A DNA stretch of 31,308 nucleotides from a virus. Its lineage: Duplodnaviria; Heunggongvirae; Uroviricota; Caudoviricetes. The notes beneath the pieces are model-generated. The model worked only from the letters and a program-made list of their open reading frames with translations, was not told where the DNA came from and made no database searches. The position numbers were made by a program, and so were the translations under genes. The stretch lies in IMG/VR virus record IMGVR_UViG_2690316224_000023; one strand, written 5' to 3'. Positions 1 to 31,308 of this stretch are shown piece after piece (the first letter of the stretch is position 1; each line of letters opens with the position of its first letter).

Positions 1-1011
1 TTATAACGTCACTCCGCCTTTTAGTGGATTCAGAGCGACGGCATTTTGCAGATAGTCAGGCGCAAGGTGCGCATAGGCCATCGTCTGCTGAATGCTCGCA
101 TGTCCCAGAATCTGTTGCAGTGCGATTATATTGCCCCCATTCATCATGAAATGGCTTGCGAATGTATGCCGCAGGATGTGGGTTGCCTGATTGGGTGGTA
201 TATCAGGTTTCACTCTGCGTAAAATCCCGCAAAATTTCTCATAATCAACTTTGAATAATTTGGCGCTGGCCTCCTCTTTAACTTTTTTCTCCAGTTCCTC
301 AGAAATCGGCACGGTTCGCTTTTTACCGTTTTTGGTTTTCAGGAAGGTAACCCTGCAATTTGTAATCTGTGCTGGTTTTAGCGTGGCAACTTCCGTCCAT
401 CTTCCTCCAGTGCTCAGACATAAAAGCGCGACAAGTAAGTCATCACCAGCCAAAACATTTAACAGTTTTTCGATTTCTGCTTTTTCCAGGAACGTCATTT
501 CAGGGTTGGCCTCCGCCAGTGGCGGCAGTCCGTGAATTGGGTGTTGCCCGGAAAATTCATCCAATTGAATTAATTTTGTGAACATGCCGGATAATCGGTA
601 CATGTCACGGTTTATCGTTGCGGCACTGATACCATCACGTAGTCGCATGGAACGATAATCCATCAAAGCCCTTTTGCTCATCCTGCTCACTGGTATATCA
701 CCTATGCCGCTGATGGTTTTGAGTAGATGATTAAACTCTTTAGTTCCATGCTCGTGGTTTTGCCCGTGATATTTCCACCAGATGTCCAGCAACTCACTCA
801 AAGTCCGGCGGTCTGCTCGCTGGCCTCCCCATTCTTTCTGACTGGCATTGGCGATTGTGTATCGCTCAAATGCTAGTGCTTCAGCTTTTCTTTCGAATTT
901 CCTGCGGATGCGTTTTCCGTCGCGACCGCGAGGTCTAATGTCCACTTCATAGCGACCATCATCGAGCTTCTTAATTGCCATAAGAAAGCCCTCCGGCGCT
1001 GTATTCACCAT
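1..1011 (-). CDS. int: Tyrosine integrase, P2 Int-like; complete, with stop codon at window positions 1-3
   Basis: 336-aa ORF; C-terminal tyrosine-recombinase box (HILRHTFASH ... GHASIQQTMAYAHL with the catalytic Tyr); sits at the prophage end co-transcribed downstream of the repressor, as in P2 (Int remembered as 337 aa). Confidence 0.9.
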   Translation of the reverse strand: MVNTAPEGFLMAIKKLDDGRYEVDIRPRGRDGKRIRRKFERKAEALAFERYTIANASQKEWGGQRADRRTLSELLDIWWKYHGQNHEHGTKEFNHLLKTISGIGDIPVSRMSKRALMDYRSMRLRDGISAATINRDMYRLSGMFTKLIQLDEFSGQHPIHGLPPLAEANPEMTFLEKAEIEKLLNVLAGDDLLVALLCLSTGGRWTEVATLKPAQITNCRVTFLKTKNGKKRTVPISEELEKKVKEEASAKLFKVDYEKFCGILRRVKPDIPPNQATHILRHTFASHFMMNGGNIIALQQILGHASIQQTMAYAHLAPDYLQNAVALNPLKGGVTL

Positions 1012-3237: not shown

Positions 3238-3509
3238 GTATTCGTATTGAAATTGGCGAACGTTATGTCGTTACCAGTGACAGCTTTCAGTTTATTCTCC
3301 ACGAGAAAAAGAGAGCGGAAAGCGGTAAAAACGCCGGTCAGGAATGGCTGGCGGTGGTTGGTTATTACCCGAAATTAAGCCAGCTCGTTTCCGGCCTGAT
3401 GCATCACGATATTCTGACCGGAAGCGCAAAGTCTTTTGCTGATTTAAACGCGCAGGTTGAGCAACTCAGCAAGCGTTGTTCAGAGGCTTTTGGCTCATAT
3501 GGCCGTTAA
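3234..3509 (+). CDS. Small early protein (P2 orf83 position)
   Basis: 91-aa ORF; start overlaps the previous stop; ends at TAA 3507-3509, overlapping the probable A start. Confidence 0.5.
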   Translation: MSIRIEIGERYVVTSDSFQFILHEKKRAESGKNAGQEWLAVVGYYPKLSQLVSGLMHHDILTGSAKSFADLNAQVEQLSKRCSEAFGSYGR

Positions 3510-5787
3510 AGCCTCCGGGCGTTTTGTCCCTCCGTCAGCATTTGCCGCAGGCACCGGTAAGACGTTTACCGGTGCTTATGCATGGAACGCGCCACGCGAG
3601 GCTGTCGGGCGCGAAAGACCCCTTACACGTGACGAGATGCGTCAGGTGCAAGGTGTTTTATCCACGATTAATCGCCTGCCTTACTTTTTGCGCTCGCTGT
3701 TTACTTCACGCTATGACTACATCCGGCGCAATAAAAGCCCGGTGCACGGGTTTTATTTCCTCACATCCACTTTTCAGCGTCGTTTATGGCCGCGCATTGA
3801 GCGTGTGAATCAGCGCCATGAAATGAACACCGACGCGTCGTTGCTGTTTCTGGCAGAGCGTGACCACTATGCGCGCCTGCCTGGAATGAATGACAAGGAG
3901 CTGAAAAAGTTTGCCGCCCGTATCTCATCGCAGCTTTTCATAATGTATGAGGAACTCTGCGATGCCTGGGTGGATGCGCATGGCGAGAAAGAATCACTGT
4001 TTACGGATGAGGCGCAGGCTCACCTGTATGGTCATGTTGCTGGCGCTGCACGTGCTTTCAATATTTCCCCGCTCTACTGGAAAAAATACCGTAAAGGGCA
4101 GATGACCACGAGGCAGGCATATTCTTCCATTGCCCGTCTGTTTAACGATGAGTGGTGGACTCATCAGCTTAAAGGCCAGCGTATGCGCTGGCATGAGGCG
4201 TTACTGATTGCTGTCGGGGAGGTGAATAAAGACCGTTCTCCTTATGCCAGCAAACATGCCATTCGTGATGTACGTGCACGCCGCCAGGCAAATCTGGAAT
4301 TTCTTAAATCGTGTGACCTTGAAAACAGGGAAACCGGCGAGCGCATCGACCTTATCAGTAAGGTGATGGGCAGTATTTCTAATCCTGAAATTCGCCGGAT
4401 GGAGCTGATGAACACCATTGCTGGCATTGAGCGTTACGCCGCCGCAGAGGGTGATGTGGGGATGTTTATCACGCTGACCGCGCCGTCAAAGTATCACCCG
4501 ACACGTCAGGTCGGAAAAGGCGAAAGTAAAACCGTCCAGCTAAATCACGGCTGGAACGATGAGGCATTTAATCCAAAGGATGCGCAGCGTTATCTCTGCC
4601 ATATCTGGAGCCTGATGCGCACGGCATTCAAGGATAATGATTTACAGGTCTACGGTTTGCGTGTCGTCGAGCCACACCACGACGGAACGCCGCACTGGCA
4701 TATGATGCTTTTTTGTAATCCACGCCAGCGTAACCAGATTATTGAAATCATGCGTCGCTACGCGCTCAAAGAGGATGGCGACGAAAGAGGAGCTGCGCGA
4801 AACCGTTTTCAGGCAAAACACCTTAACCGGGGCGGTGCTGCGGGGTATATCGCGAAATACATCTCAAAAAACATCGATGGCTATGCACTGGATGGTCAGC
4901 TCGATAACGATACCGGCAGGCCGCTGAAAGACACTGCCGCGGCTGTTACCGCATGGGCGTCAACGTGGCGCATTCCGCAATTTAAAACGGTTGGCCTGCC
5001 GACAATGGGGGCTTACCGTGAACTACGCAAATTGCCGCGCGGCGTCAGCATTGCTGATGAGTTTGACGAGCGCGTCGAGGCTGCACGCGCCGCCGCAGAC
5101 AGTGGTGATTTTGCGTTGTATATCAGCGCGCAGGGTGGGGCAAATGTCCCGCGCGATCGTCAGACTGTCAGGGTCGCCCGTAGCCCGTCGGATGACGTTA
5201 ACGAGTACGAGGAAGAAGTCGAGAGAGTGGTCGGCATTTACGCGCCGCATCTCGGCGCGCGTCATATTCATATCACCAGAACGACGGACTGGCGCATTGT
5301 GCCGAAAGTTCCGGTCGTTGAGCCTTTGACTTTAAAAAGCGGCATCGCCGCGCCTCGGAGTCCTGTCAATAACTGTGGAAAGCTCACCGGTGGTGATACT
5401 TCGTTATCGGCTCCCACACCGACTGAGCACGCCGCAGCAGTGCTTAATCTGGTTGATGAGGGTGTCATCGAATGGAGTGACCCGGAGGTCGTGAAGGCGC
5501 TCAGGGGCGCATTAAAACACAACCTGAGAACACCAAATCGTCAGCAAAGAAACGGAAGCCCGTTAAAACCATATGAAATGGCACCATCGGCCAGACTGAC
5601 CAGGTCGGAACGAATGCAAATTACCCGTATCCGTGTTGACCTTGCTCAAAAGGGTATCAGGCCGCAGCGATGGGAGCTCGAAGTGTTGGCACGAGGCGCT
5701 ACTGTTAGTTATGAGGGACAAAATTTTGCATTCACGGATAGCCATGACTGGAGTGGTTTTGCTGAACACTTTGATCTTTTTGAGTAA
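3499..5787 (+). CDS. A: Rolling-circle replication initiator, P2 gpA-like (ORF track start 3457; ATG 3499 gives 762 aa, close to the 761 aa I recall for P2 A)
   Basis: HUH motif (GTPHWHMMLF) and paired catalytic tyrosines (GYIAKYISKN) typical of rolling-circle Rep endonucleases; position after the early small ORFs. Confidence 0.9.
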   Translation: MAVKASGRFVPPSAFAAGTGKTFTGAYAWNAPREAVGRERPLTRDEMRQVQGVLSTINRLPYFLRSLFTSRYDYIRRNKSPVHGFYFLTSTFQRRLWPRIERVNQRHEMNTDASLLFLAERDHYARLPGMNDKELKKFAARISSQLFIMYEELCDAWVDAHGEKESLFTDEAQAHLYGHVAGAARAFNISPLYWKKYRKGQMTTRQAYSSIARLFNDEWWTHQLKGQRMRWHEALLIAVGEVNKDRSPYASKHAIRDVRARRQANLEFLKSCDLENRETGERIDLISKVMGSISNPEIRRMELMNTIAGIERYAAAEGDVGMFITLTAPSKYHPTRQVGKGESKTVQLNHGWNDEAFNPKDAQRYLCHIWSLMRTAFKDNDLQVYGLRVVEPHHDGTPHWHMMLFCNPRQRNQIIEIMRRYALKEDGDERGAARNRFQAKHLNRGGAAGYIAKYISKNIDGYALDGQLDNDTGRPLKDTAAAVTAWASTWRIPQFKTVGLPTMGAYRELRKLPRGVSIADEFDERVEAARAAADSGDFALYISAQGGANVPRDRQTVRVARSPSDDVNEYEEEVERVVGIYAPHLGARHIHITRTTDWRIVPKVPVVEPLTLKSGIAAPRSPVNNCGKLTGGDTSLSAPTPTEHAAAVLNLVDEGVIEWSDPEVVKALRGALKHNLRTPNRQQRNGSPLKPYEMAPSARLTRSERMQITRIRVDLAQKGIRPQRWELEVLARGATVSYEGQNFAFTDSHDWSGFAEHFDLFE

Positions 5788-6017
5788 TTACCATAAAATG
5801 CTCAGGCTACCGCTTGGGATATCCCATGGAATGCTCAGTGTATACGCTTTATGCATAGGGTATAAAGGCTGCAATTGGCAACAATTGTGCTGACATGGAG
5901 ATAAACTCATGTTGAAACTAGTGAGAGTACGTCAGTACAACCGCTATCGTTTCGGACGTTGGGAGACGGTGCGTAAACACCGCCGTTCTTACCCAACACG
6001 ATGAGATGATATGCGGC

Positions 6018-8225
6018 CTAAGCGGTAGTGTCTTCTATATTCTTTTTCTCTTCATACATTTTATTAAAATGTGAAATATCTCCCATAAGTCTAAATATCT
6101 CTTTAAATTGTGTGATGTATATGTCGGGTGTTATTTCACCCATATCTGTTATGTTTATCGAATCTGAGTGTGAACCTCTATTTATATATCTATAGAAAGC
6201 CTTGAAATTACTATTGCTTTCATTTTGTGCAAGCCTGTTCAATTCATCTTGTAACTCGTTAGTTTTATGAACAAATGCAAAGTAATATTCTAAGATGTTT
6301 CTCATTGTATTAGGGATAACTACATTGTGAACTTTTCCATCTCTGGCATCCTTGAGTATTTGCCATAAAGATTGATATTCATTTTGCAAACTATCTCTGC
6401 TGATGTTAGAAAAAGAACTATGTAGGTTTTTTGTTATTCTAAAAAGCTGATAGGTGCTATTGAATTTCCTTTCTGAAATTGGAGCTAACTTTATTAGCTC
6501 ATGAAAAAAATATAGATTATGAGTGAGGATTATCACTTTATTAGCAGAAGTGAAAATGTCATAGTGAATCATCGATGCTATATCATAGATATAGTTCTGA
6601 GAGAGACTTGAAATAGGATCGTCAATGACGATTAAACTGTCTCGGTTGTCGAATTCATCTGTGTTTGTTTGTCCCTTACAATATTCAATAAAATAGAGAA
6701 ATGTAATGAGAGTTTTTTCACCTTCGCTAAGAGATCTATATACATTTTTACTTGGTGTATTATCTGAGCGAACTATAACGAAACTATTTTTTATGGTTGG
6801 ATGTTTATCAATGTAGAAACAGGTAATGCCAAGGTTTTTTAATTTTGAGTTTATCGAGGAGATTGTTGTGTCGATATCGGATGTTTTATTTCTTAATTCC
6901 TTTATTTCATCATCAGTGTGTTTGATTTCTTTGTTAATAGAATCAATGCTTTCTTCGAGACTCTTGATAATGATGTCGTTTTCGGCTTGAATTTTCTCTA
7001 AAACCTCAAAGTCTGTATTGCGGTAGTTTCTCAATGCTCCCCAAAACTGATTTTTTATTTTATCTTGAGTAAGGTTAAATTGTTTTACCTTTTCATTAAG
7101 GTCATTAATTCTAGAGTTATATTGTTTTATGTCTTTTAGAAGAGATTCCTCAATATCTTTATCTTTATCAAGAGTTACGCTGAGTGACGGGTTTTGTATC
7201 TTGTTATTAATTAACTCAATGTTACTTTTTAGCATTTTCTCAAGGGAAGAAATGTGAGCAAGACTAGTTTTTCTTTCTTCAATTGAGATTGCTGTACAGT
7301 CATTTAACTGTGTTTTTAGTAATTGAAGTTGTTCTTGAGTAGTTAATTCATAAATATATTTTAATTTTTCAATTGATGTTATTTTCTGAGCGTAGCTCTC
7401 ATCAAAAATTTGCTCGAGCGCCTCTGTGAATTTATCATCAATGGTTTCTTTTTGACAAAAAGGGCAAATGTCGCCAACTAAATAATTTTCTTTACCTTTT
7501 TTAACCCAATCGAGATTCTGAAGCTTTTTGATTGTTTCTGATAGATAGCTATTGCTAGAATCAATGACAGGAGTCTTTAATAAATTTTCATCATCAAAAG
7601 AAATAGGGTAAGGATTATATGGAGATATTGTTTGTATGGTGGTGTTTTTATGATTCAATAACTCTCTGTAGTCAGTTAATAATTGATTTAAATCTATATC
7701 AGGTAATCTAATAGAAGACTTTACCTTTGTGAAAAGGTTTCTTTTATTCTTAAGGTACCCTGCCATTAATGAGTTGACATCAGAGTTTCTTATGTATTCG
7801 GTATTTAACCATATTGATTCAGTACAACTTGTTTCTGCATCATGATTGCGGTCTTTAATTTTTTGATAATTTGTTTTTGTTGCCTCTAGTTTTATTTTTA
7901 ATGTTTTAACTATTTCTCTTTTCTTACTTATCTCTTTTTCGATCTCGGTATTTTCTTTGCTTAATGTAAAAATCCCTTTTTGAACATCTTTATCAAAGAA
8001 GTTGTCTTCAATGAACTTTGTATTATAAACCAATGGACGATAGTTATTAATGTTTGTGCAGCGGCAGTCCCTATAGTCATCGTCTGCTGGATTATAGAAA
8101 AAATTTGATATGGTAGATTTCCCAGCTCCGTTTTGCCCGTAAAGGATATTTATTCTTTTTTCGAGGGATATTTTCGTATATTTATTTTTGTCGTAGCTTG
8201 TTACATTTTTTAGACTAAGTTCCAT
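6018..8225 (-). CDS. Cargo gene: 735-aa ABC/SMC-like ATPase with coiled-coil/CxxC insert and C-terminal putative nuclease domain; candidate anti-phage defence protein (RloC/PrrC-like architecture)
   Basis: Walker A GQNGAGKST (nt 8112-8138), CPFC (7455-7466), ABC signature-like LSEGEK (6714-6731), Walker B LIVIDD (6618-6635), H-loop ILTHN (6516-6530), C-terminal R642-x3-E646 ... H653/H686; strongly AT-rich against GC-rich phage flanks; sits where P2 has old/tin. Confidence 0.8.
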   Translation of the reverse strand: MELSLKNVTSYDKNKYTKISLEKRINILYGQNGAGKSTISNFFYNPADDDYRDCRCTNINNYRPLVYNTKFIEDNFFDKDVQKGIFTLSKENTEIEKEISKKREIVKTLKIKLEATKTNYQKIKDRNHDAETSCTESIWLNTEYIRNSDVNSLMAGYLKNKRNLFTKVKSSIRLPDIDLNQLLTDYRELLNHKNTTIQTISPYNPYPISFDDENLLKTPVIDSSNSYLSETIKKLQNLDWVKKGKENYLVGDICPFCQKETIDDKFTEALEQIFDESYAQKITSIEKLKYIYELTTQEQLQLLKTQLNDCTAISIEERKTSLAHISSLEKMLKSNIELINNKIQNPSLSVTLDKDKDIEESLLKDIKQYNSRINDLNEKVKQFNLTQDKIKNQFWGALRNYRNTDFEVLEKIQAENDIIIKSLEESIDSINKEIKHTDDEIKELRNKTSDIDTTISSINSKLKNLGITCFYIDKHPTIKNSFVIVRSDNTPSKNVYRSLSEGEKTLITFLYFIEYCKGQTNTDEFDNRDSLIVIDDPISSLSQNYIYDIASMIHYDIFTSANKVIILTHNLYFFHELIKLAPISERKFNSTYQLFRITKNLHSSFSNISRDSLQNEYQSLWQILKDARDGKVHNVVIPNTMRNILEYYFAFVHKTNELQDELNRLAQNESNSNFKAFYRYINRGSHSDSINITDMGEITPDIYITQFKEIFRLMGDISHFNKMYEEKKNIEDTTA

Positions 8226-8467
8226 TTTTATTTTTCTCTATTGTTTGTGTGTGTATATATGAAAACTGGTCAAAAATTGCTCTGGAAAAGACATGGCAAT
8301 TACAAAAGATCTACCTTAGATGAGTAACATTTTCAAGCCACAGCTAAGCTTTCAGTTGCATGATTTTGCATTTGATTTTGTGGTCTAAAACCTAAGATGA
8401 ACACTTTGTTGGGTAAGGTGTGTGTATACGAATGCAACTGCATTAAAACCGCCCCGTGAAGCGGGCG

Positions 8468-8486
8468 GGCGAGGCGGGGAAAGCAC
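8468..8486. other. cos site (19-nt cohesive end) of a P2-type phage
   Basis: GGCGAGGCGGGGAAAGCAC matches the P2 cohesive-end sequence as I remember it; located between the A-side cargo and portal gene Q, where P2 cos lies. Confidence 0.65.
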
Positions 8487-8655: not shown

Positions 8656-9690
8656 TCAGCCGTTGTCAGTGTCCAGTGAGTAGTTTTTAAAGCGGATGAC
8701 CTCCTGACCGAGCCAGCCGTTTATCTCGCGGATCCTGTCCTGTAGCGGGATAAGCTCATTGCGGACAAAGACCTTTGCCACTTTCTCAATATCACCCAGC
8801 GACCCGACGTTCTCCGGCTTGCCGCCCATCAACTGAAAGGGGATGCGGTGCGCGTCCAGCAGGTCAGCGGCGCTGGCTTTTTTGATATTAAAAAAATCGT
8901 CCTTCGTCGCCACTTCACTGAGCGGGATAATTTTAATGCCGTCGGCTTTCCCCTGCGGGGCATAGAGAAACAGGTTTTTAAAGTTGTTGCGGCCTTTCGA
9001 CTTCACCATGTTTTCGCGAAGCATTTCGATATCGTTGCGGTCCTGCACGGCATCGGTGACGTACATGATGTATCCGGCATGTGCGCCGTTTTCGTAATAC
9101 TTGCGGCGGAACAGCGTGGCTGACTCATTCAGCCAGGCAGAGTTAAGGGCGCTGAGATATTCCGGCAGGCCGTACAGCTCCTGATTAATATCGGGCTCCA
9201 GCAGGTGAAACACGGAACCGGGCGCGAAGGCTGTCGGCTCGTTGAAGGACGGCACCCACCAGTAAACATCCTCCTCCACGCCACGGCGGGTATATTTTGC
9301 CGGTGAGGTTTCCAGTCTGATGACCTTACCGGTGGTGCTGTAACGCTTTTCCAGAAACGCATTACCGAAAACCAGAAAATCCAGCACAAAGCGGCTGAAA
9401 TCCTGCTGGGAAAGCCACGGGTGCGGGATAAACGTTGAAGCCAGAATATTACGTTTGACGTAAATCGGTGAGCTGTGATGCACGGCAGCACGCAGACTTT
9501 TTGCCAGACCGGTAAAGCTGACCGGTGGCTCATACCATCTGCCGTTACTGATGCATTCGACGTAATCCAGAATGTCACGGCGGTCGAGTACCGGCACCGG
9601 TTCGCCAAAGGTGAATGCCTCCATTTTCGGGGCGCTGGCGGTCATTTTTTTTGCCGCAGGTTGCAGTGTTTTCCCTTTTTTCTTGCTCAT
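8656..9690 (-). CDS. Q: Portal protein, P2 gpQ-like
   Basis: 344 aa, matching the P2 gpQ length I recall; first gene after cos, co-oriented and overlapping with the large terminase gene. Confidence 0.9.
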   Translation of the reverse strand: MSKKKGKTLQPAAKKMTASAPKMEAFTFGEPVPVLDRRDILDYVECISNGRWYEPPVSFTGLAKSLRAAVHHSSPIYVKRNILASTFIPHPWLSQQDFSRFVLDFLVFGNAFLEKRYSTTGKVIRLETSPAKYTRRGVEEDVYWWVPSFNEPTAFAPGSVFHLLEPDINQELYGLPEYLSALNSAWLNESATLFRRKYYENGAHAGYIMYVTDAVQDRNDIEMLRENMVKSKGRNNFKNLFLYAPQGKADGIKIIPLSEVATKDDFFNIKKASAADLLDAHRIPFQLMGGKPENVGSLGDIEKVAKVFVRNELIPLQDRIREINGWLGQEVIRFKNYSLDTDNG

Positions 9691-19672: not shown

Positions 19673-20276
19673 TTCGCGCCTGCTGCCGACCGGCTCATCA
19701 CCACTTGAAGTCGCCGCCGCAAAAGCCTGTGCGGAAATTGAAAAAACGCCGGTCAGTATTCGTGAGCTGTGGAACCCGGATACCTGTCCGGCAAATCTGC
19801 TGCCGTGGCTGGCGTGGTCATTTTCTGTTGACCGCTGGGATGATAAGTGGCCGGAAGCGACAAAACGCGCTGTTATCCGCGATGCGTATTTCATTCACTG
19901 CCATAAGGGCACTATAGGCGCAATCCGGCGTGTGGTGGAGCCGCTCGGCTATCTGATTGAGGTGAGGGAGTGGTGGCAACTCAACGAGGAGCCGGGGACG
20001 TTCCGTATCGTTGTTGGTGTGCTTGAGCAGGGTATTACCGAGGAAATGTATCAGGAGCTGGAGCGCCTCGTTGCTGATGCAAAACCGGCAAGCCGCCATC
20101 TGACGGGACTGGCTATCAGTTTAAGTACAACCGGCAACATTTTTGCCGGTGCGGGATGCTATCACGGTGACGCCCTGACGGTTTATCCCTACACCCCGGA
20201 GGCCATTATTGTCGGAGGGGATTATTTCCCGGCCTCGGCCATTCATTTAATTGATAACCTGAGAGTAAACGCATGA
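19665..20276 (+). CDS. I: Baseplate protein, P2 gpI-like
   Basis: 203-aa ORF; start overlaps the J stop and stop overlaps the H start (ATGA); position. Confidence 0.8.
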   Translation: MSDSRLLPTGSSPLEVAAAKACAEIEKTPVSIRELWNPDTCPANLLPWLAWSFSVDRWDDKWPEATKRAVIRDAYFIHCHKGTIGAIRRVVEPLGYLIEVREWWQLNEEPGTFRIVVGVLEQGITEEMYQELERLVADAKPASRHLTGLAISLSTTGNIFAGAGCYHGDALTVYPYTPEAIIVGGDYFPASAIHLIDNLRVNA

Positions 20277-21394
20277 CAGTGAAATACTACGCCATTCTGA
20301 CTAATCAGGGCGCAGCACGGCTGGCTAACGCGACGATGCTCGGCAGTAAGCTGAATCTGACGCAAATGGCCGTTGGTGATGCGAATGGTGTCTTGCCGAC
20401 ACCAGACCCGGCACAGACAAAACTGATTAACCAGAAACGCATTGCACCGCTGAATCTTCTGAGTGTTGACCCGAACAACCAGAGCCAGATTATTGCGGAG
20501 CAAATCATCCCTGAGAACGAGGGCGGATTCTGGATCCGTGAGATTGGGCTTTATGATGATGAAGGCGTACTCATTGCGGTGGCGAACTGCCCGGAAACGT
20601 ACAAACCGCAGTTGCAGGAAGGCAGTGGTCGTACCCAGACTATCCGCATGATTCTGGTTGTCACGAATACCGAAGCTATCACGCTGAAAATCGACCCGTC
20701 GGTGGTACTGGCGACCCGTAAATACGTGGATGATGAAGTCCTGGAATTAAGGCTGTATGTGGATGACCAGATGAGAAACCACATTGCCGCACAGGATCCT
20801 CATACCCAGTATGCGCAGAAACATAATCCGACATTTACCGGAGAACCAAAAGCGCCGACGCCTGCCGCAGGAAATAACACCACGCGGATTGCGACCACTG
20901 AGTTTGTTCAGGCCGCTATTACCGCTCTGATTAACGGTGCGCCTGACACGCTGGACACACTGAAAGAAATTGCCGCAGCCATTAACAATGACCCGAAATT
21001 CAGCACCACCATTAACAATGCGCTGTCAGGTAAGCAGCCACTGGATGAGACGCTGACTCATTTGAGTGGAAAGGATGTTGCCGGTCTTCTCGCATACCTT
21101 GGTTTTGGAGAAGGTGCTAACTGGGTTATGTTACCTGGAGGAATGATAATTCAGCGTGTTTATCTTGGATTTCCTGTTGGCACCAATGTAAGACACATAA
21201 CTTTCCCCCGGTCGTTTACAACAACGAACTATTCCATCTCAATTAACTGGAATGATATCGGTACTGTAACAACTGAAACACAATCACCAGCAAATGTGGC
21301 GGTTGTTCATCAAACAAAATCATTAACAGGGGCCAGCATCTGGCAGGCAGGTCCCGGGGGATTTAATGTGGACATTATAGCGGTGGGGTATTGA
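20273..21394 (+). CDS. H: Tail fibre protein H in its current orientation (373 aa): constant N-terminal part plus a switchable C-terminal part beginning inside the invertible segment
   Basis: N-terminal phage tail-fibre domain; the left recombination site falls at codons about 276-282 (GFGEG); the 3' part shares that junction motif with the inverted cassette. Confidence 0.85.
   Translation: MTVKYYAILTNQGAARLANATMLGSKLNLTQMAVGDANGVLPTPDPAQTKLINQKRIAPLNLLSVDPNNQSQIIAEQIIPENEGGFWIREIGLYDDEGVLIAVANCPETYKPQLQEGSGRTQTIRMILVVTNTEAITLKIDPSVVLATRKYVDDEVLELRLYVDDQMRNHIAAQDPHTQYAQKHNPTFTGEPKAPTPAAGNNTTRIATTEFVQAAITALINGAPDTLDTLKEIAAAINNDPKFSTTINNALSGKQPLDETLTHLSGKDVAGLLAYLGFGEGANWVMLPGGMIIQRVYLGFPVGTNVRHITFPRSFTTTNYSISINWNDIGTVTTETQSPANVAVVHQTKSLTGASIWQAGPGGFNVDIIAVGY
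21099..21117. repeat. Left inverted repeat / recombination site of the invertible tail-fibre segment (gix/hix-like)
   Basis: TTGGTTTTGGAGAAGGTGC matches the reverse complement of 22828-22846 at 18 of 19 positions; resembles the right half of the Gin/Hin site consensus (CCGAGGTTTTGGATAA). Confidence 0.6.
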
Positions 21395-21395
21395 T

Positions 21396-21824
21396 ATGTA
21401 CGTATGGAGCGCTAAAGCAAATGGCTTTTTCCCCATATCGGAGAAAGAAAAATTTGAGGCATCAGGCCTGTGGCCTGATGATGGTGTAATAGTCAGTGAG
21501 GAAGAACATAAAAAGTTATTTATGGATATTCCACCAGGAAAACAGATTGGAACACTGAATGGAAAACCAGCACTGATAGATATTCCTCAGCCGACCAAAA
21601 AGGAATTAATAGCTATTGCTGAAGTTAAAAAATCCCAATTACGGGAAAAAGCTGACAGTGAAATATCCTGGCGTCAGGATGCTGTTGATGCTGATATCGC
21701 AACTGATGAAGAAGCTACAACTCTCACCCAATGGAAGAAATACCGTGTGCTGCTGATGCGTGTTGATACGTCAACAGCACCCGATATTGAATGGCCTACG
21801 CCTCCGGCAGTTCAGGCCAGATGA
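21396..21824 (+). CDS. G: Tail fibre assembly protein (P2 gpG / Mu U-like), active orientation
   Basis: 142 aa; conserved Tfa C-terminal motif (TAPDIEWPTPP); convergent with and overlapping the alternative tfa'. Confidence 0.8.
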   Translation: MYVWSAKANGFFPISEKEKFEASGLWPDDGVIVSEEEHKKLFMDIPPGKQIGTLNGKPALIDIPQPTKKELIAIAEVKKSQLREKADSEISWRQDAVDADIATDEEATTLTQWKKYRVLLMRVDTSTAPDIEWPTPPAVQAR

Positions 21825-22389
21825 CATCCGGCGCGGTGCTGGTATCTGTTGCCGTCACCGCGTCAATGTAATCCAGCACGGCGTTAAGTCGGGTTGTTTC
21901 TGCCTGAGTCAGTTTCCGTCCGGCCTGTAATTTCAGCTGAATCAGACTGATGGAAGCCATTGCAGCATCAATCAGTGACTGGCGCTGTGCTTCTGCCGCT
22001 TCTACTGCGGCACCGTGTTGTGCCTCAGTATCTGTCACCCATTTCTCACCATCCCATTTATCATATGGCGTTAACGGTGAAAGCGTGACATAACCGTTTT
22101 TGATGGCACCGATATAATCCACTGTAACAGCAGCACCATTTTCGATTGAGTAAACAGTCTCATTGCGATGATCTTCTTCATGGCTCCATCCCTTACCTGT
22201 AAATACTGCCACTCTTCCCAGAATGTTTTCGCCAGGGTCAATTCCAGTGGAACAGGCGGGCATACTTACGCCAGTATTAATATATTCATCAGACCAGCCC
22301 GTATACTCAGATGTTTCAGCATCATAATAAAAACAACGCATATCGCCCGGCACTGTAGCCAGCCCATTTTTATCAAAAACAGGTTTCAT
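21796..22389 (-). CDS. Alternative tail fibre assembly protein (tfa', Mu U'-like), currently in the inverted orientation
   Basis: 197 aa; same C-terminal Tfa motif (TAPDVIWPELPEA); 3' end overlaps the 3' end of G. Confidence 0.75.
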   Translation of the reverse strand: MKPVFDKNGLATVPGDMRCFYYDAETSEYTGWSDEYINTGVSMPACSTGIDPGENILGRVAVFTGKGWSHEEDHRNETVYSIENGAAVTVDYIGAIKNGYVTLSPLTPYDKWDGEKWVTDTEAQHGAAVEAAEAQRQSLIDAAMASISLIQLKLQAGRKLTQAETTRLNAVLDYIDAVTATDTSTAPDVIWPELPEA

Positions 22390-22846
22390 TATTTAGCCCT
22401 CACCAGAAAGTTAAATGCAATATTTCGCGGTCTGACAGCAACAAAATTCACACCATCACCCGCAGAGTTACTGGTGAAATTAAATCGTGAAAATCCTGGC
22501 TGATTTCCGGTGATGCCATCATGAAAGTTAATTGCGTGTCCCGCACCTCCGCCTATATTCCCGGCAAACTGAGAAAAGTTTGTAGCTTCCTGCCAGCTTA
22601 ATAATTCGCGACCACCATCTGCACCTCGCCCGTCATCCCAGATACGAATGAAATCACCGCGGGCTTCAGGTAATACCAGCGAAGGAAACACTTTCGCCAG
22701 CACAGGGTAATCAGAGGCAGAAAATTTCGCCCCGTTGAACTTCAAAAACACCATACCGGACCAGCTGTCGATTACAGTATTTGGCATTGCCGCGGAGGGC
22801 CAGAAGAACGGAACGCCAATAGCTGGGGCACCTTCTCCCAAACCAA
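22389..22846 (-). CDS. Alternative tail-fibre C-terminal cassette (H-variable'), promoterless; would fuse to H codons 1 to about 281 after inversion
   Basis: Minus-strand ORF 22389..22886; the GLGEGAP junction at codons 15-21 is encoded by the right inverted repeat; Gly-rich fibre-tip-like sequence. Confidence 0.65.
22828..22846. repeat. Right inverted repeat / recombination site of the invertible segment
   Basis: GCACCTTCTCCCAAACCAA is the reverse complement of 21099-21117 with one mismatch. Confidence 0.6.
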
Positions 22847-22913
22847 CGTTTAAGAAAATGCAGAGATAGCGGCTAACTGGCATCATCTCCGGTTTTTATT
22901 CAGGGGATCCGTC

Positions 22914-23507
22914 ATGCTTATTGGCTATGTCCGCGTATCAACAAATGACCAGAACACGGAATTGCAGCGTAACGCACTGGAGTGTGCAGGATGTGAGCTG
23001 ATTTTTGAGGACAAAATCAGCGGCACGAAGTCCGACAGACCGGGGCTGAAAAAACTGCTCAGAACATTATCGGAAGGTGACACTCTGGTTGTCTGGAAGC
23101 TGGACAGGCTGGGGCGTAGTATGCGGCATCTGGTCATTCTGGTTGAGGAACTGCGCGAACGCGGCGTTAATTTTCGCAGCCTGACGGATGCTATTGATAC
23201 CAGCACGCCGATGGGGCGTTTTTTCTTTCATGTGATGGGTGCTCTGGCTGAAATGGAGCGAGAACTCATTGTCGAGCGGACACGCGCCGGACTGGAAGCG
23301 GCCAGAGCCAAAGGTCGTATTGGTGGCAGACGACCGAAACTCACCACGAGTGAGTGGGAGCAGGCCGGACGGTTGCTGGCTGCAGGGGAGTCACGTCAAC
23401 GCGTGGCACTGATTTTTGATATTGGTCTGTCCACGCTCTATAAAAAATTTCCCTCATCAGCGACAAAGAATAAATTGTGTCATCCCTTAGCCAACCGGGA
23501 CAAATAG
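22914..23507 (+). CDS. Serine site-specific DNA invertase (Hin/Gin/Pin/Cin family)
   Basis: 197 aa; N-terminal resolvase catalytic domain with the active-site serine (MLIGYVRVSTNDQN), conserved DRLGRS region, C-terminal HTH; lies directly next to the invertible segment. Confidence 0.9.
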   Translation: MLIGYVRVSTNDQNTELQRNALECAGCELIFEDKISGTKSDRPGLKKLLRTLSEGDTLVVWKLDRLGRSMRHLVILVEELRERGVNFRSLTDAIDTSTPMGRFFFHVMGALAEMERELIVERTRAGLEAARAKGRIGGRRPKLTTSEWEQAGRLLAAGESRQRVALIFDIGLSTLYKKFPSSATKNKLCHPLANRDK

Positions 23508-29869: not shown

Positions 29870-29950
29870 TGTTTTTGTTTTATCTGTTTGTTTTATAAGG
29901 ATAAATTAACTAAAATGGCACCATCAACAAAACCGGAAGAGGTGCTCGCG

Positions 29951-30169
29951 ATGTTTCATTGTCCTTTATGCCAGCATGCCGCACATGCGCGTACAAGCCG
30001 CTATATCACTGACACGACAAAAGAGCGTTATCACCAGTGTCAGAACGTGAATTGCAGCGCCACGTTCATCACTTATGAGTCGGTACAGCGATACATCGTA
30101 AAGCCGGGAGAAGTCCACGCCGTAAGGCCGCACCCGTTACCGTCAGGGCAGCAAATTATGTGGATGTGA
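29951..30169 (+). CDS. ogr: Late-gene transcription activator Ogr (zinc-finger), from the internal ATG of ORF 29888..30169
   Basis: 72 aa; zinc-binding CPLC ... CQNVNC arrangement; last phage gene before the host junction, as in P2. Confidence 0.85.
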   Translation: MFHCPLCQHAAHARTSRYITDTTKERYHQCQNVNCSATFITYESVQRYIVKPGEVHAVRPHPLPSGQQIMWM

Positions 30170-30324: not shown

Positions 30325-30405
30325 ATCCTCAATTTGCCTGCTGCTTAATGCATTGCAGATGATTTGCTTCCGTTATACTAGCGTCAGTTGATAGCGGGAG
30401 TATTT

Positions 30406-31308
30406 ATGAATCAATCTTATGGACGGCTGGTCAGTCGGGCGGCGATTGCTGCGACGGCGATGGCTTCGTTGCTATTGCTGATTAAAATTTTTGCATGGTG
30501 GTATACCGGGTCGGTGAGTATTCTCGCCGCGCTGGTGGATTCGCTGGTGGATATCGGCGCGTCGTTGACGAATTTATTGGTGGTGCGATATTCCCTGCAA
30601 CCTGCCGACGATAATCACTCGTTTGGTCACGGTAAAGCTGAGTCCCTCGCGGCGCTGGCGCAAAGTATGTTTATCTCCGGTTCGGCACTATTCCTGTTTT
30701 TGACGGGTATTCAACATCTGATATCTCCAACACCGATGACAGATCCAGGCGTCGGGGTTATCGTGACAATTGTGGCGCTAATTTGTACGATTATCCTTGT
30801 CTCGTTTCAGCGTTGGGTGGTGCGGCGGACGCAAAGCCAGGCGGTGCGGGCTGATATGCTACATTACCAGTCTGATGTTATGATGAACGGCGCAATTCTG
30901 CTGGCGCTGGGGTTGTCCTGGTACGGCTGGCATCGCGCCGATGCTCTGTTTGCATTGGGAATCGGCATCTATATTTTATATAGCGCGTTACGCATGGGAT
31001 ATGAGGCGGTACAGTCATTACTGGATCGCGCATTGCCTGATGAGGAACGGCAAGAAATTATTGATATCGTGACTTCCTGGCCGGGTGTTAGCGGCGCTCA
31101 CGATCTTCGCACGCGGCAGTCAGGGCCGACCCGCTTTATTCAGATTCATTTGGAAATGGAAGACTCTCTGCCTTTGGTTCAGGCACATATGGTGGCGGAT
31201 CAGGTAGAGCAGGCTATTTTACGGCGTTTTCCGGGATCGGATGTAATTATCCATCAGGACCCCTGTTCCGTCGTACCCAGGGAGGGTAAACGGTCTATGC
31301 TTTCATAA
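30406..31308 (+). CDS. fieF: Host cation-diffusion-facilitator ferrous-iron/zinc efflux transporter FieF (YiiP); 300 aa from ATG 30406 (ORF track begins at 30388)
   Basis: Sequence matches E. coli FieF/YiiP as I remember it, including metal-site residues at D45/D49 (LVDSLVD) and H153/D157 (LHYQSD); GC content and codon style differ from the adjacent prophage. Confidence 0.9.

What the first reader, a model, noticed from the sequence alone, without database searches (positions are those of the whole stretch)
6018..8225. AT-rich single-gene cargo at the P2 old/tin hotspot: 735-aa split ABC ATPase with coiled-coil CxxC insert and a C-terminal effector domain
Seen directly: an ORF on the minus strand that is far more AT-rich (my visual estimate about 30% GC) than the GC-rich phage genes on both sides, so it looks horizontally acquired. 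The protein has Walker A (GQNGAGKST, residues 30-38), then a roughly 450-residue Lys/Glu/Leu/Ile/Asn-rich coiled-coil-like insert with CPFC at 254-257, then an ABC signature-like LSEGEK (499-504), Walker B LIVIDD (531-536) and H-loop ILTHN (565-569), then about 165 further residues. Established: in P2 the interval between replication gene A and cos/Q holds the old and tin exclusion genes and is a known variable slot for anti-phage systems in P2-like prophages. Inference: an ATPase head interrupted by a Rad50-like coiled-coil/zinc-hook and followed by a small nuclease-like domain is the layout of RloC (and, without the insert, PrrC) anticodon nucleases, so this may be a tRNA-targeting abortive-infection or exclusion protein. 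The exact family is open; it could equally be an unclassified ATPase-effector fusion.
Basis: partly seen in the sequence, partly recalled or inferred. Interest (0 to 1): 0.85.

Follow-up and report, generated by a model that had tools for sequence, protein, structure and literature searches.

The report
RloC-like tRNA nuclease in P2 prophage

Summary
A 735-aa ORF at 6018-8225 (minus strand) has 30.6% GC against 53.8% for the rest of the window. It lies alone between P2 replication gene A and cos/portal gene Q.

The protein matches Pfam AAA_13 end to end (1.7e-110) and PADLOC candidate PDC-S06 (5e-249). It meets every published sequence criterion for RloC:
- a size inside the 658-897 aa range;
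- a split ABC ATPase;
- a helical insert with an invariant CPFC hook;
- a C-terminal R642-X3-E646-X39-S685-H686 triad, invariant in 47 homologs down to 18% identity.

The most likely function is a self-contained abortive-infection anticodon nuclease. In that scheme, DNA-end sensing and ATP hydrolysis by the Rad50-like part release the tRNase.

It is not new. Rousset et al. 2022 list this accession (WP_021038201), and they label the system "RloC-like". It is their fifth most common system at the hotspot, with 420 of 18,150 loci. I found no experimental test of this subfamily. Interest is low.

The parts
6018..8225 (-). RloC-like ORF, 735 aa (identical DNA encodes WP_021038201 in E. coli PMV-1); stop codon at 6018-6020
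   Evidence: ORF listed. Pfam AAA_13 covers residues 10-711 at 1.7e-110. PADLOC PDC-S06 at 5.2e-249. 100% DNA identity to NC_022370.1.
7959..8225 (-). N-terminal lobe of the ABC ATPase head (residues 1-89); Walker A GQNGAGKST is at nt 8112-8138
   Evidence: G30, N32, G35 and K36 are invariant in 47 homologs. The model has beta strands and a P-loop helix here, with pLDDT around 90.
6831..7958 (-). Helical (coiled-coil-like) insert, residues 90-465. The arms are unequal in length: about 164 residues before the hook and about 208 after it
   Evidence: Predicted helices 90-141 and 264-464, with shorter helices and loops in 143-247. The arms diverge fastest among homologs. The top structural matches are Rad50 and SMC heads with coiled coil.
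7455..7466 (-). CPFC, residues 254-257: putative zinc hook
   Evidence: C254, F256 and C257 are invariant and P255 is at least 90% conserved. The motif lies in a non-helical stretch (residues 248-263) between helices.
6456..6830 (-). C-terminal lobe of the ABC head (residues 466-590): signature LSEGE at nt 6717-6731, Walker B LIVIDD at nt 6618-6635, H-loop H569 at nt 6519-6521
   Evidence: L499, S500, G502, E503, D535, D536, P537, S540 and H569 are invariant.
6021..6455 (-). C-terminal all-alpha nuclease-type domain (residues 591-735) carrying the triad R642 (nt 6300-6302), E646 (6288-6290) and S685-H686 (6168-6173)
8226..8431 (-). AT-rich upstream leader that travels with the gene. It holds only weak sigma-70-like matches and a weak Shine-Dalgarno sequence
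   Evidence: Homology to P2-like phages resumes only at about 8422-8432. Sequence read. No promoter passed the scan threshold in this stretch.
5788..6017 (.). Spacer between the gpA stop codon and the ORF stop codon; no credible extra ORF and no terminator-like site found
   Evidence: GC is 46.5%. No deposited phage matches it at megablast level.
8468..8486 (+). P2 cos cohesive-end sequence; it marks the right edge of the hotspot
   Evidence: Exact single match with 0 expected by chance.
3457..5787 (+). gpA replication endonuclease; the left border of the hotspot
   Evidence: annotated 'replication endonuclease'; Phage_GPA in a related locus.
8656..9690 (-). gpQ portal protein; the right border of the hotspot

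Best explanation
This is a single-gene, horizontally acquired defence cargo of a P2-like prophage. It encodes a member of the RloC branch of the PrrC/RloC family of ABC-ATPase-HEPN anticodon nucleases.

The mechanism below is inferred from biochemically characterised RloCs. It has not been shown for this protein.
1. The protein dimerises through its Rad50-like ABC head.
2. In the resting state, the helical arms and their CPFC zinc hook hold the C-terminal RNase off.
3. Binding of DNA ends or breaks, such as those produced during a superinfecting phage's attack or replication, drives ATP hydrolysis at the Walker A (K36), signature, Walker B and H569 site.
4. That step releases the C-terminal nuclease, whose catalytic residues are R642, E646 and H686.
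5. The nuclease cuts tRNA anticodon loops. Characterised RloCs excise the wobble nucleotide, a lesion that phage tRNA repair enzymes cannot simply religate.
6. Translation stops and the infected lysogen aborts the infection, which protects sibling cells and the prophage they carry.

Because the switch is internal, the gene works alone and can move as a one-gene cassette into the A-cos-Q hotspot.
For: Shown here:
- Full-length AAA_13 match and PDC-S06 match.
- All published RloC sequence criteria are met.
- K36, C254/C257, LSxGE, DD535-536, H569, R642, E646 and H686 are invariant in 47 homologs down to 18% identity.
- The C-terminal half hits the PADLOC PrrC HMM over residues 483-732 at 2.1e-12, and 43 of 47 family members hit PrrC.
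- The AF2 model (mean pLDDT 83.7) has Rad50 and SMC heads with coiled coil as its best PDB matches.
- Relatives at 23-28% identity are named 'wobble nucleotide-excising tRNase' or 'translation-disabling ACNase' by their sources.
- It is a lone gene between gpA and cos, with no partner ORF.
- It is patchily distributed cargo: 17 of 2153 E. coli genomes that match the flanks hold it.
- Alleles at 51% protein identity (P0026) and 68% DNA identity occupy the same slot in other P2-like prophages.

From the literature:
- RloC ACNase activity, abolished by triad mutants, and zinc-hook control (PMC2610378).
- DNA-dependent ATPase switch (PMC3458546).
- Activation by DNA double-strand breaks in vivo (PMC3874168).
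- HEPN assignment, and the note that prophages carry ABC-HEPN proteins (PMC3710099).
- The hotspot is a reservoir of defence systems, and this system is labelled 'RloC-like' there (PMC9122126).
Against: - No experiment on this protein or its roughly 735-aa subfamily was found. Rousset et al. did not include it among their tested systems, and PADLOC lists it only as a candidate.
- I could not compare it directly with the characterised G. kaustophilus or A. baylyi proteins.
- Identity to the clade that sources name RloC is only 23%.
- The full-length protein did not report the PrrC hit. Only the C-terminal half did.
- The insert is not a clean long antiparallel coiled coil. Arm 1 contains prolines and short helices, so hook geometry and the Rad50-like switch are assumptions.
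- The trigger and the tRNA targets are unknown.
- A direct anti-phage phenotype is thinly documented even for RloC itself in the papers I could read.
Confidence: 0.8

Rival explanations
1. It has the same architecture but different biochemistry. It would be an ABC-HEPN abortive-infection RNase that answers to a different trigger, such as a phage protein or anti-restriction factor rather than DNA ends. It might also cut different RNAs, such as other tRNAs, mRNA or rRNA, without excising the wobble nucleotide.
For: It is only about 23% identical to the clade that sources name RloC. The arms and the C-domain outside the triad diverge strongly. The arms are unequal and interrupted. Anantharaman et al. 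separate a prophage-borne ABC-HEPN group (APECO1_4465) from RloC proper, and an APEC O1:K1:H7 strain carries an allele in this same slot. PrrC and RloC themselves differ in trigger and cleavage pattern (PMC3458546).
Against: The hook cysteines and all ATPase motifs that form the RloC switch are invariant. The gene stands alone, as expected for an internal switch. No evidence points to another trigger. I could not confirm that APECO1_4465 belongs to this family.
Confidence: 0.13
2. It is a sensor ATPase of a multi-component system of the Lamassu LmuB, PARIS AriA, MADS or Septu/Ptu type. Its effector would be encoded elsewhere, and the C-domain would be non-catalytic.
For: There are weak PADLOC hits to LmuB (4.9e-12), mad3 (1.1e-9), AriA (4.8e-5) and PtuA. 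AriA appears among the PDB hits.
Against: Those hits are confined to the ABC head or the coiled coil and are hundreds of bits below PDC-S06. There is no partner gene anywhere between gpA and cos. The invariant R/E/H triad argues for a catalytic C-domain.
Confidence: 0.03
3. It is a Rad50/SbcC/SMC-like DNA repair or DNA maintenance protein serving the prophage, not a defence nuclease.
For: The best structural and PDB-profile matches are Rad50 and SMC heads. There are weak NCBIfam and Pfam hits to SMC and Rad50.
Against: All NCBIfam hits are far below their cut-offs, for example 25 bits against a 300-bit cut-off. There is no Mre11/SbcD partner. The arms are far shorter than in Rad50 or SMC. The extra C-domain carries the PrrC-type triad and a PrrC HMM hit. 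The gene is variable, AT-rich cargo in a defence hotspot, not a core gene.
Confidence: 0.02
4. It is a toxin-type addiction or lysogenic-conversion gene that stabilises the prophage or benefits the host in another way, with no role against phages.
For: The hotspot also carries non-defence cargo such as partition systems and a cytolethal distending toxin. RloC is toxic when overexpressed (PMC2610378). Related copies are occasionally interrupted by IS elements.
Against: No antitoxin or partner gene is present. The family occurs widely outside prophages as a lone gene, sometimes near R-M genes. PADLOC and the hotspot survey both place it with defence candidates.
Confidence: 0.02

Closest known systems
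RloC (Geobacillus kaustophilus and Acinetobacter baylyi RloC; COG4694 'wobble nucleotide-excising tRNase'; Pfam AAA_13)
   Same: It has the same domain order: ABC head, helical insert with a CX2C hook, the second half of the ABC head, then a C-terminal ACNase domain. Its size is within the published range. The R-X3-E-X39-SH triad fits the published spacing. It is a lone gene with no linked silencer. It matches AAA_13 over its full length.
   Different: It is shorter than G. kaustophilus RloC (735 against 804 aa). It is only about 23% identical to the 798-aa clade that sources name RloC. Arm 1 is interrupted by prolines and short helices. It is prophage-borne at the P2 hotspot. Activity, trigger and tRNA targets are untested.
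PrrC anticodon nuclease (E. coli prr locus)
   Same: It has the same ABC motifs and the same R/E/H nuclease triad. The PADLOC PrrC HMM aligns to residues 483-732 at 2.1e-12.
   Different: PrrC is 341-416 aa with no coiled-coil or hook insert. It is always embedded in a type Ic R-M locus that silences it (PMC2610378, PMC3458546). Here there is a roughly 375-residue insert and no R-M genes.
System #5 'AAA_13, RloC-like' of the P2 gpA-gpQ hotspot (Rousset et al. 2022, Table S5) and PADLOC candidate PDC-S06
   Same: This is the same gene family at the same locus. The accession WP_021038201 is listed in Table S5A. The Table S5B representative is near-identical at the N-terminus. PDC-S06 model PDLC04886 matches residues 2-727 at 827 bits.
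   Different: Nothing structural differs. This window holds the allele that is about 93% DNA-identical to some other E. coli copies. The survey did not test this system.
P2 Old (OLD-family ABC ATPase + TOPRIM nuclease)
   Same: It occupies the same slot in P2. It is a single protein with an ABC ATPase sensor fused to a nuclease. A 2026 preprint reports Old as a DNA-triggered abortive tRNase (10.64898/2026.07.10.737580), so the two appear functionally analogous.
   Different: The effector fold differs: Old has a TOPRIM domain, whereas here the C-domain is an all-alpha HEPN-type domain. Old has no long helical insert or CxxC hook. No OLD or TOPRIM family hit was found here.
Rad50 / SbcC
   Same: It shares the split ABC head with protruding helical arms and a CxxC hook. 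Rad50 structures are the best structural matches.
   Different: The arms are much shorter. There is no Mre11/SbcD partner. It has an added C-terminal RNase-type domain. Sequence scores are far below the family cut-offs.

Membership tests
RloC | Size 658-897 aa, about twice that of PrrC | tested here: met
   735 aa; range taken from PMC2610378.
RloC | [quoted passage not shown] | tested here: met
   GQNGAGKS 30-37, LSEGE 499-503, LIVIDD 531-536 and H569 are present and invariant in 47 homologs.
RloC | ATPase domain split by a largely alpha-helical insert with a central loop carrying CX2C (the zinc hook) | tested here: met
   Helices span about 90-247 and 264-465. CPFC 254-257 lies in the non-helical stretch between them. 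C254 and C257 are invariant. Rad50 and SMC are the top fold matches. Caveat: arm 1 is interrupted, and zinc binding was not tested.
RloC | C-terminal Arg-X3-Glu-X36-52-His triad, with Ser often preceding His | tested here: met
   R642-X3-E646-X39-S685-H686. R, E and H are invariant and S is at least 90% conserved.
RloC | Homology of the C-region to the PrrC nuclease domain | tested here: met
   The PADLOC PrrC HMM matches residues 483-732 to profile positions 130-358 of 372 at 2.1e-12. 43 of 47 family members hit PrrC. The full-length query did not list the hit.
RloC | C-domain adopts a HEPN-type fold | tested here: inconclusive
RloC | Self-contained gene, usually without a linked R-M silencer | tested here: met
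   It is the only credible ORF between gpA and cos. Distant homologs are lone genes in varied contexts.
RloC | Significant direct similarity to a biochemically characterised RloC (G. kaustophilus YP_146738 or A. baylyi ADP1) | not tested
   Neither sequence surfaced in the two homolog searches. The only links are through Pfam AAA_13 and source names such as 'wobble nucleotide-excising tRNase'.
RloC | Anticodon nuclease activity with wobble-nucleotide excision; DNA-dependent ATPase switch; zinc responsiveness | not testable with these tools
   These are biochemical properties, known only for the G. kaustophilus and A. baylyi proteins (PMC2610378, PMC3458546, PMC3874168).
PrrC | 341-416 aa, with an uninterrupted ABC domain (no coiled-coil or hook insert) | tested here: not met
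   735 aa with an insert of about 375 residues and a CPFC motif.
PrrC | Embedded in a type Ic R-M (hsd/prr) locus that silences it | tested here: not met
   The neighbours are gpA and cos/gpQ. There are no hsd genes in the window.
OLD family (P2 Old, GajA) | ABC ATPase fused to a C-terminal TOPRIM nuclease | tested here: not met
   No TOPRIM or OLD model hit in Pfam, NCBIfam or PADLOC. The C-domain is all-alpha.
Rad50/SbcC | Scores above family thresholds, and an Mre11/SbcD nuclease partner | tested here: not met
   The NCBIfam Rad50 and SMC hits score 12-25 bits against cut-offs of 300-1000. There is no partner gene.
PADLOC PDC-S06 (candidate single-gene defence system) | Match to a PDC-S06 HMM over the full length | tested here: met
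   PDLC04886 at 5.2e-249, covering residues 2-727 of the protein and positions 4-725 of the 727-position profile.
P2 gpA-gpQ hotspot cargo (Rousset 2022) | Located between gpA and gpQ, next to cos, and variable among P2-like prophages | tested here: met
   The accession is listed in Table S5A and the system is noted 'RloC-like' in Table S5B.

The most novel reading that the evidence does not exclude
The compact, roughly 735-aa clade at the P2 hotspot may be a functionally distinct branch of the RloC family. Its unequal, interrupted arms could sense a different cue than the Rad50-like DSB bridging proposed for G. kaustophilus RloC. Examples would be phage replication intermediates or a phage protein. 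It might also target its own set of tRNAs.

Together with the report that P2 Old is a DNA-triggered tRNase, this would mean that P2-like phages swap non-homologous but interchangeable 'ABC ATPase DNA sensor plus tRNase' cassettes at one locus. P2's own way of replicating and packaging could be what makes the carrier phage immune to them.
Probability: 0.25. Interest if true: 0.45.

Novelty: already known. Interest (0 to 1): 0.2.

Why it matters
As a discovery it matters little. The family (PrrC/RloC ABC-HEPN anticodon nucleases), the locus (the P2 gpA-cos-gpQ defence hotspot) and this very protein's presence there with the label 'RloC-like' are all published.

Its remaining value is practical. 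This subfamily ranks fifth in abundance at the hotspot, with 420 of 18,150 loci. It is carried by E. coli, and its 90%-identity cluster includes Salmonella. Public records annotate it only as 'AAA family ATPase', and it has apparently never been tested.

It would be a convenient native E. coli model for several open questions about RloC: the trigger, the tRNA targets, the role of the zinc hook, and whether it resists phage tRNA repair. It could also be compared with P2 Old, which sits in the same slot and is now reported to be a DNA-triggered tRNase.

Tried and rejected
- DNA search of deposited phages. Only the flanks match, so no sequenced phage isolate in that collection carries this allele. 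The tblastn search found one 52%-identical copy in Enterobacter phage ENT4 and distant copies at about 25% identity.
- PDB sequence searches, with the single sequence and with two profiles. No solved RloC or PrrC relative was found. The hits are to the P-loop or coiled-coil regions only.
- NCBIfam. Only sub-threshold SMC and Rad50 hits, so a housekeeping SMC, RecF or RecN identity is rejected.
- PHROGs. A family exists (phrog_2801, 1210 bits) but has unknown function, which adds nothing.
- Reaching the characterised G. kaustophilus or A. baylyi RloC through a profile of distant members. The search found a different, highly conserved 798-809-aa clade instead.
- The HEPN paper's supplement, to place APECO1_4465. 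The alignments are not held, so whether this clade is that 'prophage ABC-HEPN' group stays unresolved.
- The 'Rx4-6H' reading around H686 (R679 or R683). Rejected as the conserved element, because those arginines are not conserved, whereas R642 is invariant.
- Promoter and terminator scans. There is no convincing promoter in the 8226-8431 leader and no terminator downstream. Counts are near the shuffle expectation, so the scans are uninformative.
- Bitton et al. 2015 (PMID 26031711), on activation of RloC by T4, is not held in the library.
Full report
**Observation**

It is 30.6% GC, against 53.8% for the rest of the window and 53% for both neighbouring genes. All the stated motifs are present at the stated residues. 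The one exception is ILTHN, which is 566-570 rather than 565-569.

The left neighbour is the P2-type replication endonuclease gpA (3457-5787). The right neighbours are portal gpQ and terminase gpP. The 19-nt P2 cohesive-end sequence, which I recalled from memory, occurs exactly once at 8468-8486. So the gene sits in the gpA-cos-gpQ interval.

The whole window is a P2-like prophage. It runs from the integrase gene (1-1011) to ogr (29888-30169) and is followed by a host cation-efflux gene.

**Cargo, not core**

Of 5426 complete E. coli genomes, 2153 match the flanks of this interval, but only 17 carry this gene. A further set carry diverged alleles, giving 133 genomes in all at DNA level. No deposited phage matches window 5788 to about 8421.

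Alleles at 51% protein identity (P0026) and 68% DNA identity occupy the identical slot in other P2-like prophages. More distant relatives are lone chromosomal genes:
- in Helicobacter pylori;
- in a gut-metagenome bacterium, a few kilobases from a type IIS R-M pair;
- in an IS-rich E. coli island.

No second ORF accompanies the gene here.

**What the protein is**

Pfam AAA_13 matches residues 10-711 against profile positions 4-712 of 713, at 1.7e-110. The PADLOC candidate system PDC-S06 matches at 5.2e-249. PHROGs has the family, but with unknown function. NCBIfam gives only far sub-threshold SMC and Rad50 hits.

Davidov & Kaufmann 2008 (PMC2610378) define RloC by four features:
- a size of 658-897 aa;
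- PrrC-like ABC motifs;
- an alpha-helical insert with a central CX2C zinc hook that splits the ATPase;
- a C-terminal Arg-X3-Glu-X36-52-His triad, often with Ser before the His.

This protein has all four. The triad reads R642-X3-E646-X39-S685-H686.

In an alignment of 47 homologs reaching 18% identity, the invariant residues include exactly the ones that define the family:
- Walker A: G30, N32, G35, K36;
- hook: C254, F256, C257;
- signature: L499, S500, G502, E503;
- Walker B: D535, D536;
- H-loop: H569;
- triad: R642, E646, H686.

The arginines next to H686 (R679 and R683) are not conserved. The catalytic arginine is therefore the PrrC-type one in the R-x3-E helix.

Conservation is highest in the two head lobes, the hook and the C-domain, and lowest in the arms.

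Given alone, the C-terminal half hits the PADLOC PrrC model over residues 483-732, at 2.1e-12. Of the 47 family members, 43 hit that model.

Relatives at 23-28% identity are named 'wobble nucleotide-excising tRNase' by JGI or 'translation-disabling ACNase' in Streptococcus prophage records. The alignment to one of them is collinear from the P-loop through the hook to the H-loop.

**Structure**

The AlphaFold model has mean pLDDT 83.7 and pTM 0.46. It shows a beta-rich ABC head formed by residues 1-89 and 466-590, with a helical insert between them. A hairpin plus an all-alpha domain follows from about residue 592.

The best Foldseek matches in the PDB are Rad50 in Mre11-Rad50 complexes and SMC heads with coiled coil. 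AriA, retron PtuA and Lamassu LmuB rank lower. No RloC or PrrC structure exists in the PDB by sequence.

Two cautions apply. The loop carrying H686 has low confidence. Arm 1 of the insert is broken by prolines and short helices and is shorter than arm 2, so the insert is not a textbook antiparallel coiled coil.

**Mechanism (inferred by homology)**

For G. kaustophilus RloC, three findings are published:
- triad mutants abolish anticodon nuclease activity and toxicity;
- hook mutants activate the nuclease;
- Zn2+ inhibits it (PMC2610378).

The ATPase needs DNA and switches the nuclease on. Hook mutations bypass that requirement (PMC3458546). Linear DNA and the hydrolysed nucleotide sustain the activity, and agents that induce double-strand breaks activate RloC in its natural host (PMC3874168).

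On that basis I expect this protein to be a latent tRNase of the lysogen. It would fire when its Rad50-like part detects DNA ends or damage associated with a superinfecting phage. It would stop translation and abort the infection. Its wobble-excising chemistry would resist phage tRNA repair. None of this has been shown for this protein.

A 2026 preprint reports that P2 Old, the classic occupant of this very slot, is an ABC-ATPase-TOPRIM tRNase triggered by DNA substrates. If so, the two cargos look functionally analogous although their nuclease domains are unrelated.

**Comparison with what is known, and novelty**

Rousset et al. 2022 (PMC9122126) defined the gpA-gpQ interval as a hotspot of anti-phage systems. 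Its representative sequence is near-identical to this one.

Their Table S5A lists WP_021038201. That is the protein annotated on the E. coli PMV-1 record, whose DNA is 100% identical to this ORF. The system was not among those they tested.

PADLOC carries the family as a candidate. A 2025 preprint mentions an E. coli PDC-S06 ATPase as a probable true positive. Anantharaman et al. had already noted prophage-borne ABC-HEPN proteins in 2013.

The finding is therefore correct but already catalogued. What is missing in the literature I could search is any experimental test of this subfamily. Public annotation is still 'AAA family ATPase' or 'hypothetical protein'.

**Verdict**

Novelty is 'already known' and interest is low, about 0.2.

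Confidence is about 0.8 that this is an RloC-family ABC-HEPN anticodon-nuclease defence gene. Confidence is lower, roughly even odds, that the trigger and the cleavage chemistry match those of the characterised RloCs.

Noticed in passing
window 20273-23507: This looks like a Gin/Cin/Pin-type invertible tail-fibre host-range switch. It comprises a tail-fibre gene (20273-21394, +) and a tail-fibre assembly gene (21396-21824, +). Opposing them are a second assembly gene (21796-22389, -) and a 165-aa ORF with no Pfam hit (22389-22886, -). A serine invertase (Resolvase + HTH_7, 22914-23507, +) follows. A 31-nt inverted repeat (21087-21117 and 22828-22858, 81% complementary) brackets a segment of about 1.7 kb, and its left arm lies inside the fibre gene. 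GC dips to 44-47% here.
   Followed up: partly
proteins P0099-P0218 (not in the window): There is a second, different RloC clade of 798-809 aa, named 'wobble nucleotide-excising tRNase' by JGI. It is 75-92% identical across very distant Proteobacteria (E. coli, Serratia, Ralstonia, Burkholderia, Xanthomonas, Geomesophilobacter), which suggests recent wide horizontal spread. It is only 23% identical to the window protein.
   Followed up: no
window 1-1011 and 30388-31308; L001: The window spans a complete P2-like prophage. In E. coli PMV-1 the integrase end abuts cpxP/cpxR. The other end of the window is a host CDF cation-efflux gene (Cation_efflux + ZT_dimer), which looks fieF-like from my memory of the K-12 map. 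The prophage therefore appears to be inserted between cpxP and that gene.
   Followed up: no
hits H35 (NZ_CP148363.1) and H102 (NZ_CP146687.1): In a few genomes the RloC-like gene or a related allele is interrupted by an insertion sequence. H35 has an 'integrase core domain-containing protein' under a two-piece match that is about 1.1 kb longer than the query. H102 has an IS5 transposase between two 'AAA family ATPase' fragments. This hints at occasional inactivation, perhaps because of a cost to the host.
   Followed up: no
window 8226-8431 and the start codon at 8223-8225: The leader that travels with the gene has only weak promoter-like matches and a weak Shine-Dalgarno sequence (AGAGAA about 9 nt upstream). 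This fits the low expression that Davidov & Kaufmann predicted for rloC genes.
   Followed up: partly
literature: bioRxiv 10.64898/2026.07.10.737580: P2 Old, the canonical gene of this slot, is reported to be an abortive tRNase that DNA substrates activate and that cuts out the anticodon arm. The hotspot may therefore exchange analogous cassettes that pair a DNA-sensing ABC ATPase with a tRNase.
   Followed up: partly
residues 617, 639, 641, 644, 682, 719, 723 of the ORF (window about 6057-6377): Beyond the R/E/H triad, the C-domain has further residues conserved in at least 90% of homologs (Y617, N639, M641, I644, N682, H719, M723). These include a C-terminal 'HYxxMM' motif that is not mentioned in the RloC papers I read. 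They could contribute to the active site or to tRNA recognition.
   Followed up: no
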